The notes under the pieces are model-generated. The model made no database searches, had not been told where the DNA came from, and saw nothing but the letters and a program-made list of their open reading frames with translations. 64,000 nucleotides of DNA. It comes from Paenarthrobacter sp. (GTDB lineage: Bacteria; Actinomycetota; Actinomycetes; Actinomycetales; Micrococcaceae). Position 1 is the first letter of the stretch, and the number at the start of each line of letters is the position of its first letter. A program made the position numbers and the translations under genes. This document shows positions 45,062 through 49,420 of the stretch, piece by piece. The stretch covers positions 36,914-100,913 of the forward strand of contig JAPSHX010000006.1 in the NCBI GenBank assembly GCA_031179305.1. Reading direction: 5' to 3'.

Positions 45062-46321
45062 CTACTGGACAGGTTCCGCCTGCTTGACCTCTCTTTTGAC
45101 GTCACTTTGCCTCAGCATGGAGTCCGAATTGATCGCAAGAATCCCCGAAAGCAGGGCTGCCAGGAGGATGGAGCCAAAGGCCATGAATGACGAGACGCCC
45201 ATAAGAAACGTGGCAACTGCAAGGCTGAGGGGACTGGATACAGTTTCAAGAAACTGGACCGCCGTCATGGTCTTGCCCAGGTCAGACGAGGGAATCTGTT
45301 GATGGATGAGGGACGTGCGTCCCACCGTCCATGCGATGCCGCCCGTACAGACGACGAAAAGGGCACATGCCACGGCAATCCACGACGGTATGAAGAAGAG
45401 CAAGGCCCCTGCTGCCATAAGCCATGAGGACCGTTGCATCAGAACGTTTGGGCGCCATTCGGAGAGCAAACCTGACAGAATCGAACCGCAGAAGAGGCCC
45501 GCAGCTGCCGCTGCACCGACGATTCCTACTTCCGTGGCGGAACCCTTGAGGCCAACGGAGGTCTGGAAGATCGCCAATGTGGACAAAGGGGCGGATAGGA
45601 AGCCGACGAGGACAACTGTCCCGGCAAAACGCCACCAACCATGGATTTGGGTAAGTCGCCGGTACCCGGCAGAAAGTTCCTTGAAGAAACCCGGCCGGTC
45701 CGGCAGGCTGCTCGGGCGCTCCGGCCAAGGCAGGAAATTCATGATCAAGGCAATGACCGTAAACGACACTGCATCAACAGCCAGCAACCACCACGGGCCC
45801 CAGACGGCGCTCAAAGCTCCACCAATTGCCGGACCCACGATGGAAGCTGAGGTCCATGCGGTGGAAACTGCGGCATTGAACTTCGCGGTGCCGTCACCGT
45901 ACATCTTCGGGATGGCCACGAAGGTGGCTGTCCGGGCGAACATGTCTAGGCTGCCGCGTAGGAAGGCGCCTAGTACGAGGACCCAAAAGGGCGTGTGCCA
46001 AGGCCCTATCAGCAGCGCCATTGCAGCAACAACAAGTGCTTGACCCCAATAGCCGATGTGGGTCATGACGCGGGGGGACATACGATCCGCGAGTCCGCCG
46101 ATGAGGACTCCGGGGAAAGCCTTGGGAAGTTGTGATGCCACGGCAACAATGGACATCTGGGCAAGGCTGCCGCTTGTCTGCAGAACTATGAGTGGCAGCG
46201 CGATGTTGTACGCACCCCCACCCAACGAATTCACCCACATTCCCGTGAGGTGCAAACGTCTCTGCCATGGCTTTGCCAATGACACTTCAGTTACCTCGGG
46301 GTGACTGGAGAATGGTGACAA
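45062..46321 (-). CDS. MFS exporter (MccC-like role) of the RiPP cluster
   Basis: About 12 TM segments; GGLADRM, IVGPAIGG, DAVSF; last gene of the mccA-mccB operon, overlapping the previous gene. Confidence 0.8.
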   Translation of the reverse strand: MSPFSSHPEVTEVSLAKPWQRRLHLTGMWVNSLGGGAYNIALPLIVLQTSGSLAQMSIVAVASQLPKAFPGVLIGGLADRMSPRVMTHIGYWGQALVVAAMALLIGPWHTPFWVLVLGAFLRGSLDMFARTATFVAIPKMYGDGTAKFNAAVSTAWTSASIVGPAIGGALSAVWGPWWLLAVDAVSFTVIALIMNFLPWPERPSSLPDRPGFFKELSAGYRRLTQIHGWWRFAGTVVLVGFLSAPLSTLAIFQTSVGLKGSATEVGIVGAAAAAGLFCGSILSGLLSEWRPNVLMQRSSWLMAAGALLFFIPSWIAVACALFVVCTGGIAWTVGRTSLIHQQIPSSDLGKTMTAVQFLETVSSPLSLAVATFLMGVSSFMAFGSILLAALLSGILAINSDSMLRQSDVKREVKQAEPVQ

Positions 46322-47132
46322 GGTCGGGCTGCTTTTCCACTGATGTGAGAAGCCATTGCATTACGGGTGCCTGCCAAAAGCTGATATTCCACGTGCGGGC
46401 AATGACCATGTGAAAGATGGTGGTGCAGCAGGGAACTACCATCCGCCACTTGCCGGGAAGAATGAGGGCAAGGGGGAGTGCGACTAATTCAAGAAAGGGA
46501 ATTGTGCGAGTTAGGGCACGAACCGGCATTCTATATCGCTCTTGGGCAAACGGGTGAGTATCCGAGGCCAACAGGTGCGAATGATAGATATGGTTGGCAT
46601 CGCCGCGCCTGACCCAAGCGTCATAGCCGTGGAGGAGTTTGGACAAGCCGGCCTGCGTGTAGGGCAGGTATAGCGCAACCCGTGAGACCGAAAGCGGCAG
46701 GCTCGGGGACTGGCCACTGCCCGGCTTGGACATCTGACTGATGACGAGTACCGCTTCAATGAACGTGTCATACGGCCAGCGGCCCGGTAGGGATCGGGCA
46801 TCCAAAGCTCGTGTTGCCAAGAAGACTCCCAGCGCTGCCCGCCGAATCCAAGAAGAGGACTTTGACCCGGGGTTTCCACAAACCTCGCCGGCAGCCGCGG
46901 CCGCCATCAGTAGTCCGGCGGCCGCGCGTCGGCTCTTCCAAGCGGCCCCTTCATCAGCCGTGCGGTCCACCGCTGACTCCTGTGAAGCAACTGCAGCTCG
47001 GTAGTCACGGGAAGCAGCCGGGCCGGGGCGGAGCGTCAGCGCAAGGGCGGCAACAGCCCACACTGCCGCATTGCGCACATGCTGGAGTTGGACTGGTTTA
47101 CGGCGAAGTTGTCGGAACATACGTGTACACAA
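46287..47132 (-). CDS. HTTM-like membrane protein (SdpB / vitamin-K-dependent carboxylase-like fold); start uncertain
   Basis: Y..AG.SKL....W...G (YTQAGLSKLLHGYDAWVRRG), FLEL, FH..I....I.F (IFHMVIARTWNISF). Confidence 0.6.
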   Translation of the reverse strand: MCTRMFRQLRRKPVQLQHVRNAAVWAVAALALTLRPGPAASRDYRAAVASQESAVDRTADEGAAWKSRRAAAGLLMAAAAAGEVCGNPGSKSSSWIRRAALGVFLATRALDARSLPGRWPYDTFIEAVLVISQMSKPGSGQSPSLPLSVSRVALYLPYTQAGLSKLLHGYDAWVRRGDANHIYHSHLLASDTHPFAQERYRMPVRALTRTIPFLELVALPLALILPGKWRMVVPCCTTIFHMVIARTWNISFWQAPVMQWLLTSVEKQPDLVTILQSPRGN

Positions 47133-47586
47133 TTTCCTTTTCCTCAGGCATTCCCCGAACAGTAGTTGCCACCAGGATGTCCATCCTCAAGGGATGGTCG
47201 GGCAGGTGAGCGGGGGTGCGAACCTCGTCAAACGGTCTCCAGGCGTTGCTTCGAAGCCTCTGGATGATTCTCTGGCAGAGGACATTCTTTGGTTGCTCGT
47301 CCTCACCCATGAAGATGCCGGCGAACACGGCTCCGGCCCGGAAGAACTGGGTTGGAAGGCAGTTTGCCGGGCCGCAAGCAACGGTTGTTCCACCAGGCAT
47401 GTGAAATTCAACTGCGAATCTTGAGACGCGGTCCCGGAACTTCGCATTGAACATATTGTTTGACGCAATTGGCCAGAAGTTTCTGTTGGCCACCGTTGCG
47501 GCGATCGAGGCGACTACGTAGGCCCCCGCCAACGCAACGAGCGCCGTGGACTTGTTGCAGTCAGGCGCACGCAGCACAGCGGCCAT
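47098..47586 (-). CDS. membrane-anchored protein of unknown function (partner of the HTTM-like protein)
   Basis: One N-terminal TM helix then FWPIASNNMF; overlaps both neighbours; start uncertain. Confidence 0.6.
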   Translation of the reverse strand: MAAVLRAPDCNKSTALVALAGAYVVASIAATVANRNFWPIASNNMFNAKFRDRVSRFAVEFHMPGGTTVACGPANCLPTQFFRAGAVFAGIFMGEDEQPKNVLCQRIIQRLRSNAWRPFDEVRTPAHLPDHPLRMDILVATTVRGMPEEKEIVYTYVPTTSP

Positions 47587-48598
47587 TCCTGGCGAAATCT
47601 TCGAACTCCGATGCCAACTCCAGCGAGTCAAACACCAGCCTCCTGCCGTCAAGGTTGGTGGATCCGGTAAGCAGGTAGCGGAACACTTCCATTGCGGCAA
47701 TGGACGCCACGATTGAGTTCAGCGGCCCAAAGCTTGGGGCCTGGTATGAGCTATTGAGATTGGTGGTGGAGAGCGATGCCTTTGATTTGGTCCTGCCGTC
47801 GTTGTCTGTCGCTGCGCATTCCAGGCAAGGGGTGACGCCTGGCCGTACTACCGGGCCTACCACTCCACGCGTATCTTGATACCCGGCGCAAGTGAAGGGT
47901 GTGCCGGTGGCGATGGACGCCTGGTTAGACCACTCGAGCACTTCCTGGGGCGTATCGGCCGAGACCACAACGAAGTCTGAGTCCTGAAAAACAGGCAAGA
48001 GATCGTTCGCTCCGGACATCATGGAGGCGACTTCCACCGTGTTGATGCCGGGGGCCCTGAGGTGAAGGTTTCTTGCAGCGGCTTGAATTTTGGGGGAACC
48101 GATATCTTGCGCAGTGAAGAGGTACTGCCGGGTCAGGTTGCTTTCTTCCACAGTGTCCCCGTCGACCAGGACAATGGTGCCCACACCGGCTGTTGCGAGT
48201 TGCATGGCTACGTTCGTTCCGATCCCTCCCACACCGATTAGCGTGACCTTTCGATTACGCAGCAGATCGCTGGCACCGGGGCCGGTGCTGTGTGCAAGTT
48301 CAAAGTACAGGTCATGGCGGCTGTACCGGCCGGAGAGGTCGAACCTGTACGGCACCAGAATCTCGGCGTCGATAAGTTCCTCGACGATCTCCCCGGAGCC
48401 TTCACCCAGCAGGAGTTCGGCCTTGCCGCCCAAAGCGTCGAGTGTCCGTGGCTGTGAAGCGAAGCTAAGTAGTTCTGCGAGCCCGTCCGGGGCATCCTCG
48501 ATTTCGATTGCGTTGGGCGGGGCCAATCCGATCTGCACGGCCGTTTCCGTGGTGATGACGGGTAGCGACTGCTTGAGGGAGTAGGTTATGACTGCCAA
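47561..48598 (-). CDS. mccB: MccB-like ThiF-family peptide nucleotidyltransferase
   Basis: N-terminal extension of about 90 aa (RRE-like), then RYSR, GVGGIG, D.D.VE.SNLTRQ, VVSAD.P, AGY, GP...PG.TPCLEC, PSFGPLN, terminal CAAC. GGAGG-N6-TTG start at 48598. Confidence 0.88.
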   Translation of the reverse strand: MAVITYSLKQSLPVITTETAVQIGLAPPNAIEIEDAPDGLAELLSFASQPRTLDALGGKAELLLGEGSGEIVEELIDAEILVPYRFDLSGRYSRHDLYFELAHSTGPGASDLLRNRKVTLIGVGGIGTNVAMQLATAGVGTIVLVDGDTVEESNLTRQYLFTAQDIGSPKIQAAARNLHLRAPGINTVEVASMMSGANDLLPVFQDSDFVVVSADTPQEVLEWSNQASIATGTPFTCAGYQDTRGVVGPVVRPGVTPCLECAATDNDGRTKSKASLSTTNLNSSYQAPSFGPLNSIVASIAAMEVFRYLLTGSTNLDGRRLVFDSLELASEFEDFARNGRCAACA

Positions 48599-48616
48599 TT
48601 CTTGCCTCCAATGATG

Positions 48617-48647
48617 AGTGGGGGCCACGCGTTGCGCGGCCCCCACT
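48617..48647. terminator. hairpin between precursor gene and mccB
   Basis: AGTGGGGGCC-N11-GGCCCCCACT; T-tract follows only on the + strand. Confidence 0.65.
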
Positions 48648-48660
48648 TTTTATTCTTGGT

Positions 48661-48720
48661 TTAGTTGAACACGAAGTTCAGCTTGGAACGGCGCTTGGCC
48701 AGTCGCTTGAGCTTAAGCAC
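48661..48720 (-). CDS. mccA: microcin C-like precursor peptide MLKLKRLAKRRSKLNFVFN (19 aa)
   Basis: AAGGAG SD 8 nt upstream of GTG; C-terminal Asn then TAA; directly upstream of the MccB-like gene; too short for the ORF track. Confidence 0.88.
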   Translation of the reverse strand: MLKLKRLAKRRSKLNFVFN

Positions 48721-48762
48721 TTGAATCACTCCTTTGTGTTTATAAACTTGTTGGACGGAATG

Positions 48763-48800
48763 AATCTACGACAGTTGTCATAGATATGACAAGCCTGTCG
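48763..48800 (-). promoter_or_regulatory. putative mccA promoter with overlapping palindromic operator
   Basis: Minus-strand TTGTCA-N18-TAGATT; inverted repeat CGACAG-TTGTCAT-agat-ATGACAA-gc-CTGTCG. Confidence 0.55.
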
Positions 48801-48865
48801 ATTACTTTTTTGCGTGCCGCTTCGGTTGATCTCCGTCAGGGCGTGTGGGGTATAGAGTCGAGGTC

Positions 48866-49420
48866 ATGTTTGAACTTGTCCCGCCGAATGTTGCCTTCCA
48901 CCAGTCATTCCTTGAGTCTCACCGCGAGTGGGGCGGCGTCCATCAGGATGGCGCCGCCGTCTTCCTGGCGGACGATGTCACCAGCGCGGAGGGGTTCGCA
49001 GCTTGGGTTGGTAAGTTGTTGGACGCTGAAAGCACACCTGAGGAGAACGGCATTGTTCCATGCACTTATCTCTGGATCACGGAGGGTCCACGCTACGTAG
49101 GGGCGATTGCGTTCCGGCACCATCTGACGCCGGCTCTCCTGAACTCGGGTGGGCATATCGGCTATGGGATTCGCCCCTCGGATCGCAGGAGGGGGGTGGC
49201 GTCCTGGGCCTTGCAGGAACTGCTGGCTCGTTTGGCTGCGAAGGGGGAGTTGGGTGGGGTTCGGTCGGATCGAGTTCTGCTGACCTGTGATGACGACAAT
49301 TCGGCGTCGATTAGAACCATCGAGCGCTGCGGGGGGCGGCTCGAAGATGCGCGGACGGGTGAAGACGGTCGGCTTTTCCGCCGGTACTGGATCGACCTGG
49401 AAACACCTGCAGCACCATAG
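48866..49420 (+). CDS. GNAT family acetyltransferase (COG3981-like)
   Basis: GGHIGYGIRPSDRRRGVA, LTCDDDNSASIRTIERCGG, RRYWI. Confidence 0.88.
   Translation: MFELVPPNVAFHQSFLESHREWGGVHQDGAAVFLADDVTSAEGFAAWVGKLLDAESTPEENGIVPCTYLWITEGPRYVGAIAFRHHLTPALLNSGGHIGYGIRPSDRRRGVASWALQELLARLAAKGELGGVRSDRVLLTCDDDNSASIRTIERCGGRLEDARTGEDGRLFRRYWIDLETPAAP

What the first reader, a model, noticed from the sequence alone, without database searches (positions are those of the whole stretch)
48661..48735. Unannotated, highly cationic 19-aa precursor MLKLKRLAKRRSKLNFVFN
Seen: AAAGGAG-TGATTCAA-GTG...AAC-TAA. The peptide has 7 Lys/Arg in its first 13 residues, no acidic residue, and a hydrophobic FVF before the terminal Asn. 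Established: E. coli MccA is the heptapeptide MRTGNAN. From memory (verify), the Bacillus amyloliquefaciens precursor is also a 19-mer starting MLK and ending in N. Inference: the cationic part could drive uptake independent of YejABEF-type transporters, or be a leader that is cleaved to leave a short carrier such as SKLNFVFN.
Basis: partly seen in the sequence, partly recalled or inferred. Interest (0 to 1): 0.85.

Follow-up and report, generated by a model that had tools for sequence, protein, structure and literature searches.

The report
Known microcin C-type 19-residue precursor gene
The small gene is real and strongly conserved and almost certainly encodes the peptide that a neighbouring enzyme turns into a microcin C-like "Trojan horse" antibiotic, but this same peptide was already listed as a predicted precursor for Arthrobacter strains in a 2019 paper.

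Summary
Observation confirmed. On the minus strand, SD AAAGGAG (48735-48729), GTG (48720) and stop TAA (48663-48661) frame the 19-aa peptide (M)LKLKRLAKRRSKLNFVFN. A 14-bp GC hairpin follows (48647-48617), then a 345-aa ThiF enzyme whose best solved relative is MccB (E 1e-40).

The ORF, its SD, the terminal Asn codon and a hairpin recur beside every MccB relative examined. That covers 11 Paenarthrobacter/Arthrobacter loci and four distant lineages with 42-50% MccB identity: Nostocoides, a gammaproteobacterial MAG and two metagenomic types. Two of the distant clusters carry full mccD/mccE-like gene sets.

It is not new. Table S1 of Zukher et al. 2019 (mBio, PMC6495379) lists exactly this peptide for Arthrobacter sp. 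M2012083 and Y81, predicted but not validated. It also lists the validated B. amyloliquefaciens 19-mer MLKIRKVKIVRAQNGHYTN.

- The N-terminal register M-L-x-[LI]-x-x-[LIV] is shared across the long-precursor clade, including acidic Staphylococcus versions. This suggests recognition by MccB rather than charge-driven uptake.
- Synonymous sites of the ORF are almost frozen: 2 of 15 codons vary against 13.7 expected. This is unexplained.
- The two unknown membrane genes form a pair that elsewhere sits beside McC-type resistance genes.

Interest is low to moderate. First-stage notes on this same window (e1-5521601, -603, -604, -605) already describe the cluster; none comes from other DNA.

The parts
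48763..48792 (-). Promoter-like site: -35 TTGTCA (48792-48787), 18-nt spacer, -10 TAGATT (48768-48763). The -35 lies inside a perfect 7-bp inverted repeat, TTGTCAT-N4-ATGACAA.
   Evidence: Consensus scan. CTTGTCA and TAGATTC are conserved in the alignment of 12 loci. No experimental TSS is available.
48729..48735 (-). Shine-Dalgarno AAAGGAG, 8 nt upstream of the start codon.
   Evidence: The GGAG/GGGG core is conserved in all 12 Arthrobacter-type loci, and purine-rich SDs occur in L012, L013, L015 and L021.
48661..48720 (-). mccA-type precursor gene: GTG start, 19 codons, TAA stop. Peptide (M)LKLKRLAKRRSKLNFVFN.
   Evidence: Identical to the predicted MccA of Arthrobacter sp. M2012083 and Y81 in Zukher 2019 Table S1.
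48617..48647 (-). 14-bp GC-rich hairpin with a 3-nt loop between mccA and mccB. It is terminator- or stabiliser-like and has no U-tract.
   Evidence: MFE -31.6 kcal/mol, z -5.55. One pair runs G-C / G-U / A-U across loci. Unrelated but equally strong hairpins occupy the same position in L012, L013, L015 and L021 (z -3.4 to -5.9).
47561..48609 (-). mccB homologue: SD GGAGG (48609-48605), TTG start 48598, 345 aa. It has a ThiF adenylation domain plus a ~90-aa N-terminal domain.
   Evidence: Pfam ThiF 5e-44. Best PDB relatives are MccB 6om4/3h5n at E 1e-40, against ThiF at 2.5e-19 and PaaA at 3e-14. Asp215 and Tyr240 align with the catalytic D214 and Y239, and both CxxC pairs align. The tree places it in the clade with 18-19-aa precursors.
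47098..47577 (-). ORF2: about 159 aa, one N-terminal TM helix, motif ANRNFWPIASNNMFN. The start is uncertain: GTG 47577, or ATG 47586 in this strain.
   Evidence: Conserved in L001-L012 and L015. No Pfam or NCBIfam hit. 138 representative clusters in the profile search.
46287..47120 (-). ORF3: 277-aa multi-helix membrane protein, distantly HTTM-like.
   Evidence: Conserved in L001-L012. hhalign gives 95.6% to a protein with a weak HTTM hit and 97% to a fused ORF3-ORF2 protein. Atlas lead is HTTM. The AF2 model is too poor to use (pLDDT 50.7).
45062..46321 (-). MFS transporter, mccC-like exporter (start codon uncertain).
   Evidence: Pfam MFS_1 1e-20 and NCBIfam H+ antiporter subfamily. Conserved in all loci including L012 and L013.
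48845..49420 (+). Divergently transcribed GNAT (Acetyltransf_3 type). Candidate self-immunity gene. Start is 48845 or 48866.
   Evidence: Pfam 1.8e-8 and a weak RimL-type NCBIfam hit. Syntenic in all 11 Arthrobacter-type loci although the outer flanks differ. Only weakly related to the MccE2-like GNATs of L013 and L015, and no PDB relative by sequence.

Best explanation
The ORF is the mccA gene of a microcin C-like peptidyl-nucleotide cluster: GNAT <- | mccA - hairpin - mccB - ORF2 - ORF3 - mccC. It is translated into a 19-residue peptide. The MccB homologue binds the peptide, probably through the peptide's N-terminal MLKLKRL segment and the enzyme's N-terminal domain (inferred). MccB then activates the C-terminal Asn19 with NTP and passes through a succinimide to an isoAsn carrying a phosphoramidate-linked nucleotide. 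That chemistry is established for E. coli MccB and inferred here. The nucleotide is most likely AMP, and no aminopropyl group is expected, because this MccB has no methyltransferase domain and the cluster has no mccS, mccD or mccE1 (inferred). The MFS pump exports the product. [quoted passage not shown] The hairpin after the stop codon most likely yields or stabilises a short, abundant mccA transcript, as in E. coli (inferred). The GNAT, and perhaps the ORF2/ORF3 pair, protect the producer (inferred).
For: Sequence anatomy fits. The enzyme's best solved relatives are MccB (1e-40), with the catalytic Asp and Tyr and the two CxxC pairs aligned.

The ORF, SD, terminal Asn and hairpin are present in all 11 Arthrobacter-type loci. 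They are also present in four distant lineages:
- Nostocoides: MLKLKKLISSRSKVNVMFN.
- Gammaproteobacterial MAG: (M)LNIKRITARVLRGRLKN.
- Metagenome L015: (M)FKLKKLFKSRSKINFVFN.
- Metagenome L021: two tandem copies, MLKIKR[IV]IVRKLGGLSPN.

In Nostocoides the codons differ while the peptide is kept, as expected for a coding sequence. L013, L015 and L021 also encode MccD-like methyltransferase, MccE1-like decarboxylase, MccE2-like GNAT and MFS genes, so this clade belongs to genuine mcc clusters.

The tree puts this MccB in a 100/99-supported clade with all MccBs for which I found 18-19-aa precursors, apart from the E. coli 7-aa type.

The literature agrees. The identical peptide was predicted as MccA. 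Long precursors of 17-56 aa go with a separate MccB clade. A terminator-like hairpin between mccA and mccB is general in mcc operons.

RNA-library contigs of a roughly 92%-identical relative span mccB, the hairpin and mccA at word depths of about 700-1000 in libraries of only 20-28 Mbases. That depth is hard to reconcile with DNA carry-over, but no control stretch could be laid.
Against: Nothing has been shown biochemically for this peptide or any Arthrobacter relative; the published entries carry no validation DOI. The N-terminal 88 residues of MccB show no sequence similarity to E. coli MccB, and their fold was not tested. The hairpin lacks a U-tract, so termination is not assured. The nucleotide identity is inferred only from missing genes, and MccB enzymes accept several NTPs in vitro. 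The GNAT belongs to a different subfamily from the MccE2-like ones. The RNA contigs come from a relative, are assembled contigs rather than reads, and include one that also bridges into the divergent GNAT gene.
Confidence: 0.85

Rival explanations
1. The ORF is only a regulatory leader peptide. Its translation controls the hairpin and so mccB expression, and the peptide itself is not a substrate.
For: A strong hairpin lies 13 nt after the stop. Synonymous sites of the ORF are unusually frozen, which points to an RNA- or ribosome-level constraint. In E. coli, ribosome binding at mccA does control termination.
Against: The peptide sequence, and above all the terminal Asn, is kept across lineages whose DNA and hairpins have diverged. 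L021 carries two tandem copies, which is typical of RiPP precursors. An MccB-family enzyme needs an Asn-terminated peptide and no other candidate lies in the cluster. Regulation and substrate roles coexist in E. coli, so this reading is a rival only in its exclusive form.
Confidence: 0.05
2. The peptide is the precursor of a different ThiF/E1-dependent RiPP, for example a PaaA/pantocin-like or azoline (TOMM) product. NCBI names for relatives ('TOMM precursor leader peptide-binding protein') suggest this.
For: NCBI gives that name to relatives. There are weak NCBIfam hits to cyclodehydratase docking families (2.9e-11 and 8.8e-11). PaaA is also a PDB relative (3e-14).
Against: The MccB match is far stronger (1e-40) and covers the catalytic residues. 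The cluster has no YcaO, dehydrogenase or other azoline machinery. The peptide has no Cys or Thr and only one Ser. Sister clusters carry mccD- and mccE-like genes.
Confidence: 0.05
3. The precursor is real, but the exported antibiotic carries only a C-terminal fragment. The N-terminal MLKLKRL part acts as a leader that is removed, possibly with the help of the ORF2/HTTM-like pair or a housekeeping protease. This refines the best explanation rather than excluding it.
For: The N-terminal register is conserved clade-wide while the C-terminal parts differ. The Yersinia 42-mer is trimmed to 11 aa before export. The C-terminal block RSKxN[FV][VM]FN is separately conserved in three actinobacterial-type lineages.
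Against: No protease is encoded in the cluster. Peptide parts of about 20-25 aa can enter E. coli untrimmed via YejABEF or SbmA. The function of ORF2/ORF3 is unknown, and their neighbours elsewhere point to immunity rather than processing.
Confidence: 0.25
4. A chance ORF or a purely non-coding RNA element.
For: It is very short and uses a GTG start.
Against: Frame, SD, length (18-19 codons) and the terminal Asn codon are conserved in 16 loci across at least two phyla. Indels occur only outside the frame.
Confidence: 0.02

Closest known systems
Predicted MccA of Arthrobacter sp. M2012083, Y81 and FB24 and WP_090821928-linked strains (Zukher et al. 2019 mBio, Table S1)
   Same: The peptide is identical: (V/M)LKLKRLAKRRSKLNFVFN. 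FB24 has A8T. Two of my related loci are these very strains (L010 = M2012083, L007 = Y81).
   Different: It is in another Paenarthrobacter genome. The published entry is only a table row without validation or analysis of the cluster.
Bacillus amyloliquefaciens McC (MccA MLKIRKVKIVRAQNGHYTN, validated; peptidyl-carboxymethyl-cytidine)
   Same: A 19-residue precursor, an N-terminal ML-K-[IL]-basic-basic-[VL] register and a terminal Asn. MccBs fused to a methyltransferase, the architecture described for the Bacillus enzyme, form the sister group of the window's clade in my tree; the Bacillus sequence itself was not in the tree.
   Different: The Bacillus-type MccB carries a C-terminal carboxymethyltransferase domain and needs MccS. 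The window's MccB is 345 aa with a ThiF domain only, and there is no mccS. Cytidine with carboxymethyl is therefore not expected. The C-terminal halves of the peptides are unrelated.
E. coli microcin C7 system (mccABCDEF; MccA MRTGNAN)
   Same: The gene order mccA - hairpin - mccB - ... with an MFS exporter, the terminal Asn, the catalytic Asp/Tyr and Zn-binding cysteines of MccB, and a GNAT nearby.
   Different: The E. coli precursor is 7 aa against 19 aa here. MccB identity is only 33%, confined to residues 89-345, and the N-terminal domains are unalignable. There is no mccD, mccE1 or mccF here. Two extra membrane genes are present.
Yersinia pseudotuberculosis McC (42-aa precursor trimmed to 11 aa)
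   Same: A long, basic precursor that contains an internal LKIKRV segment resembling the MLK[LI]KR[LIV] motif. It is the precedent for leader-like trimming.
   Different: It is cytidylated and carboxymethylated by a methyltransferase-fused MccB (general statement). It is much longer. Its processing is described as endoproteolytic before export.

Membership tests
MccA-type precursor of a microcin C-like cluster | Short ORF directly upstream of, and co-oriented with, an MccB-family gene | tested here: met
   The ORF at 48720-48661 lies 62 nt upstream of the mccB start at 48598. The arrangement is the same in 16 loci.
MccA-type precursor of a microcin C-like cluster | C-terminal Asn immediately before the stop codon | tested here: met
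   AAC-TAA here. Asn is terminal in all Arthrobacter-type loci and in L012, L013, L015 and both copies in L021.
MccA-type precursor of a microcin C-like cluster | Terminator-like hairpin in the mccA-mccB spacer | tested here: met
   z -5.55 here, one covarying pair, and independent hairpins in four distant lineages. Termination itself was not shown.
MccA-type precursor of a microcin C-like cluster | Partner enzyme is MccB-like: adenylation domain with catalytic Asp/Tyr, a Zn Cys4 site and an N-terminal peptide-binding domain | tested here: inconclusive
   The adenylation domain, D215/Y240 and both CxxC pairs align with E. coli MccB. The N-terminal ~88 residues have the right length but no detectable similarity to E. 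coli MccB, and their fold was not modelled.
MccA-type precursor of a microcin C-like cluster | Dedicated exporter (MccC-type MFS) in the operon | tested here: met
   A 419-aa MFS at 45062-46321, conserved in all loci.
MccA-type precursor of a microcin C-like cluster | Peptide is nucleotidylated on Asn by MccB, and the product inhibits aspartyl-tRNA synthetase | not testable with these tools
   This needs enzyme assays and mass spectrometry. The published Arthrobacter entries are predictions only.
Long-precursor MccB clade (Zukher et al. 2019) | MccB groups apart from the 7-aa-type enzymes and with enzymes whose precursors are 17 aa or longer | tested here: met
   In the IQ-TREE run, the window falls in a 12-row clade (100/99) with the L008, L012, L013, L015 and L021 enzymes. 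E. coli MccB and the Nocardiopsis type fall in the other clade (100/100). The E. coli branch is long, so only the separation is claimed.
Cytidine/carboxymethyl type (B. amyloliquefaciens, Yersinia) | C-terminal methyltransferase domain on MccB and an mccS gene | tested here: not met
   MccB is 345 aa with a ThiF domain only. No methyltransferase was found among the ORFs scanned between 44033 and 50605.
Aminopropylated type (E. coli McC7) | mccD (SAM-dependent transferase) and mccE1 (PLP decarboxylase) | tested here: not met
   Absent from the window cluster. Present in relatives L013, L015 and L021.

The most novel reading that the evidence does not exclude
The mccA message carries a second, nucleotide-level function, because its synonymous sites are almost frozen. 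The peptide would also be bipartite: a clade-wide N-terminal M-L-x-[LI]-x-x-[LIV] leader read by MccB, and a lineage-specific carrier, RSKLNFVFN. The ORF2/HTTM-like membrane pair would act on the product or protect against it. Together this would be a maturation or immunity route not described for microcin C-like compounds.
Probability: 0.2. Interest if true: 0.55.

Novelty: already known. Interest (0 to 1): 0.3.

Why it matters
Microcin C-like compounds are Trojan-horse inhibitors of aspartyl-tRNA synthetase, and nearly all studied ones carry 7-residue peptides. The actinobacterial 19-mers are listed in the literature but have not been characterised. Confirming the gene here mainly secures the annotation. 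Relatives are labelled 'TOMM precursor leader peptide-binding protein' or 'ThiF family adenylyltransferase', and the peptide gene is too small for most gene callers. The side observations give concrete, cheap experiments on how long-precursor MccB enzymes recognise their substrates and how producers protect themselves. These observations are the shared N-terminal register, the frozen synonymous sites, and a membrane gene pair that travels with MccF-like and GNAT resistance genes.

Tried and rejected
- **AF2 models.** The models of ORF3 (pLDDT 50.7) and ORF2 (63.4) were too poor for fold searches, so none was run.
- **Family searches.** Pfam and NCBIfam gave nothing for ORF2 and only sub-threshold LMF1 and DUF7542 hits for ORF3. 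No SdpA or SdpB family hit appeared.
- **GNAT.** It has no solved relative by sequence at E <= 0.01.
- **Structure inside the ORF.** RNAalifold proposes two small hairpins in the ORF and pairing of the 5' leader with the mccB SD. All of these pairs are invariant, so they carry no covariation support and were not adopted as the explanation for the frozen synonymous sites.
- **Other MccB relatives.** Upstream regions in L022, L023 (low-GC, methyltransferase-fused), L024 (Nocardiopsis) and G072 showed no convincing Asn-terminated ORF under my simple pattern. They were left unresolved.
- **ORF2 distribution.** The ORF2 profile found no match in 400 other sampled Actinomycetota genomes.
- **Complex prediction.** MccB with the peptide was not attempted, because the tool asks for chains of 30 residues or more.
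- **RNA runs.** Only contigs of a ~92%-identical relative were available, and no silent control stretch could be laid because the cap is one call. Parts without cover in run X2 are not interpreted.
- **Literature.** The Serebryakova 2016 JACS paper is not held. No paper in the library links HTTM with microcin C.

Full report
**1. What is in the sequence**

The feature is on the minus strand. Reading 5' to 3':
- A promoter-like site: TTGTCA, 18 nt, TAGATT (48792-48763).
- AAAGGAG (48735-48729), then an 8-nt spacer.
- GTG (48720), then 18 codons ending in AAC (Asn19), then TAA (48663-48661).

The peptide is (M)LKLKRLAKRRSKLNFVFN.

Thirteen nucleotides after the stop comes a 14-bp GC hairpin (48647-48617; -31.6 kcal/mol, z -5.55). 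After it come GGAGG and a TTG start (48598) for a 345-aa ThiF-family protein.

Downstream, with overlapping or abutting ends, lie three more genes:
- A ~159-aa protein with one TM helix (ORF2, 47098-47577).
- A 277-aa polytopic membrane protein (ORF3, 46287-47120).
- A 419-aa MFS transporter (45062-46321).

A GNAT of the Acetyltransf_3 type is transcribed divergently (48845-49420).

**2. The enzyme is MccB-like**

Against all solved structures the best hits are E. coli MccB entries (6om4, 3h5n; E 1e-40). ThiF follows at 2.5e-19 and PaaA at 3e-14. In that alignment Asp215 and Tyr240 match D214 and Y239, which Travin et al. 2021 name as the key catalytic residues. Both CxxC pairs are also aligned.

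Similarity to E. coli MccB is 33% and starts only at residue 89. The N-terminal domain has the right size, but its peptide-clamp nature is untested.

**3. Conservation**

A scan of one genome per species found 13 loci encoding relatives of this MccB. Eleven are Paenarthrobacter/Arthrobacter-type with 64-95% identity. One is a Nostocoides MAG (49%) and one a gammaproteobacterial MAG (42%).

Every locus has an 18-19-codon ORF with an SD, ending in Asn, upstream of mccB and followed by a hairpin. Two further lineages, reached through the protein searches, show the same arrangement:
- L015-17 (MccB 49% identical): (M)FKLKKLFKSRSKINFVFN.
- L021 (45%): two tandem copies of MLKIKR[IV]IVRKLGGLSPN.

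The hairpins of the five lineages are unrelated in sequence but all strong (z -3.4 to -5.9). Within the Arthrobacter group one stem pair runs G-C, G-U, A-U.

The gammaproteobacterial, L015 and L021 clusters also encode an MccD-like methyltransferase, an MccE1-like PLP decarboxylase, an MccE2-like GNAT (fused to MccB in L013) and an MFS. This ties the clade to genuine mcc clusters.

In a maximum-likelihood tree the window's MccB sits in a 100/99-supported clade with all enzymes for which I found 18-19-aa precursors. That clade is sister to a group holding the methyltransferase-fused enzymes and is separated from E. coli MccB.

The block from the GNAT to the MFS is syntenic in the 11 Arthrobacter-type loci while the outer flanks differ. 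The cluster is sporadic. MccB was found in 2 of 16 other sampled genomes of the genus, and in 3 of the 300 other sampled genomes of the family in all. It is single-copy in this genome.

**4. Literature**

The peptide is not new. Table S1 of Zukher et al. 2019 (PMC6495379) lists:
- VLKLKRLAKRRSKLNFVFN for Arthrobacter sp. M2012083 and Y81. These are my loci L010 and L007.
- The A8T form for FB24.
- The ATG-initiated form for WP_090821928.

All of these lack a validation DOI. The same table lists the validated B. amyloliquefaciens MLKIRKVKIVRAQNGHYTN. The paper states that precursors of 17-56 aa go with a separate MccB clade.

Travin et al. 2021 summarise three relevant points:
- The succinimide/phosphoramidate chemistry of MccB.
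- The ribosome-dependent terminator between mccA and mccB.
- The rule that all known cytidylating MccBs carry a methyltransferase domain and need MccS.

They also report that peptide parts of about 20-25 aa can enter E. coli via SbmA as well as YejABEF, and that the 42-aa Yersinia precursor is trimmed to 11 aa before export. Neither is tested for this peptide.

**5. Mechanism proposed**

- Translation of the 19-mer.
- Binding to MccB.
- NTP-dependent conversion of Asn19 to an isoAsn-phosphoramidate nucleotide.
- Export by the MFS.
- Uptake and degradation in a target cell, then inhibition of AspRS.

Only the sequence features and their conservation are shown here. The chemistry and the target are inferred from the family. 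This MccB has a ThiF domain only, and the cluster lacks mccS, mccD and mccE1. A plain peptidyl-adenylate is therefore the most likely product (inference).

**6. Transcription**

RNA-library contigs from one study of a relative (about 8% nucleotide differences) cover 47400-49200, which includes mccB, the hairpin and mccA. Word depth is about 700-1000 in libraries of 20-28 Mbases.

Such depth is hard to explain by DNA carry-over from a genome of about 4.5 Mb. But these are contigs, one of them bridges into the divergent GNAT gene, and no control stretch could be laid. I treat this as suggestive only.

**7.

(a) *N-terminal register.* It is shared across the clade:
- MLKLKRL (here)
- MFKLKKL (L015)
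- MLKLKKL (Nostocoides)
- MLNIKRI (gammaproteobacterial MAG)
- MLKIKR[IV] (L021)
- MLKIRKV (Bacillus)
- MLKIVKK (Streptacidiphilus)
- MLEI[KQ]E[VI] (Staphylococcus)

The conserved property is the hydrophobic spacing, not the charge. The first ~35 residues of MccB are also well conserved between the window and L015. I infer that this segment is the handle MccB recognises. The C-terminal block RSKxN[FV][VM]FN is specific to the actinobacterial-type lineages.

(b) *Synonymous sites are nearly frozen.* Across the window and L001-L010, 87% of mccB third codon positions vary. In mccB, codons with an invariant amino acid show synonymous change in 70-100% of cases for the amino acids concerned. In mccA only 2 of 15 such codons vary, against 13.7 expected; none of 200,000 simulations gave so few. 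The loci were found through MccB, so there is no ascertainment bias. The cause is unknown. Candidates are codon selection for very high or reiterative translation, ribosome-terminator coupling, or RNA structure. The predicted intra-ORF hairpins have no covariation support.

(c) *ORF2 and ORF3 form a conserved pair.*
- They occur in the mcc clusters of Arthrobacter, Nostocoides and L015.
- ORF3 is distantly HTTM-like.
- Fused ORF3-ORF2 proteins exist.
- Outside mcc clusters the pair or the fusion sits next to S66 (MccF-like) peptidases three times and next to an Acetyltransf_3 GNAT once. Those are the two classical McC immunity enzyme families.
- This suggests a membrane immunity or handling module, by association only.

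**8. Verdict**

The identification as an MccA-type precursor is very likely right. It is a further occurrence of a peptide already predicted in the literature, and it remains unvalidated experimentally.

Noticed in passing
window 48664-48720 (-), compared with L001-L010: Synonymous sites of mccA are almost invariant: 2 of 15 invariant-amino-acid codons vary, against 13.7 expected from mccB in the same genomes. Codons 12-19 are identical in all 12 Arthrobacter-type loci. No covariation-supported RNA structure explains this.
   Followed up: partly
window 46287-47577 (-); L012, L014, L015, L018, L019, L026: ORF2 (TM helix plus the ANRNFWPIASNNMFN domain) and the HTTM-like ORF3 are a conserved pair, and they are fused in some organisms. 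Outside mcc clusters they lie next to Peptidase_S66 (MccF-like) three times and next to an Acetyltransf_3 GNAT once. This suggests a role in immunity to, or handling of, aspartyl-nucleotide antibiotics.
   Followed up: partly
window 48775-48792 (-): A perfect 7-bp inverted repeat, TTGTCAT-N4-ATGACAA, overlaps the -35 hexamer of the mccA promoter. A TTGTCA-N6-TGACA core recurs in most related loci. It could be an operator.
   Followed up: no
window 48596-48765 (-): RNAalifold pairs the 5' leader (AUUCAUUCCGUCCA) with the mccB ribosome-binding region (UGGAGGCAAGAAU). All of these pairs are invariant, so the pairing is unsupported, but it could mask the mccB SD.
   Followed up: no
L021:3684-3862: A metagenomic relative (MccB 45% identical) has two tandem mccA copies differing at one residue (MLKIKRIIV... 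and MLKIKRVIV...). Each has its own SD, and the second is followed by a canonical hairpin with a T-run.
   Followed up: partly
L011:6001-7028: The mccB match in Arthrobacter sp. UNC362MFTsu5.1 spans 1028 nt for 344 residues, and the reading frame changes between the N- and C-terminal parts. This is a frameshift or an assembly error.
   Followed up: partly
relatives P0161, P0164, P0166 and the Nocardiopsis proteins: Public records name these MccB homologues 'TOMM precursor leader peptide-binding protein' or 'ThiF family adenylyltransferase'. These names hide the microcin C-type context.
   Followed up: no
G072:C1:3107408-3108427 (locus L020): Another genus of the family has a 40%-identical MccB-like gene inside a ~700-aa open frame. 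No Asn-terminated small ORF lies directly upstream. This is a different mcc-like architecture.
   Followed up: partly
window 47400-49200: RNA-seq contigs of a ~92%-identical relative (one study, three runs) cover mccB, the hairpin, mccA and part of the GNAT gene at high word depth in very small libraries.
   Followed up: partly
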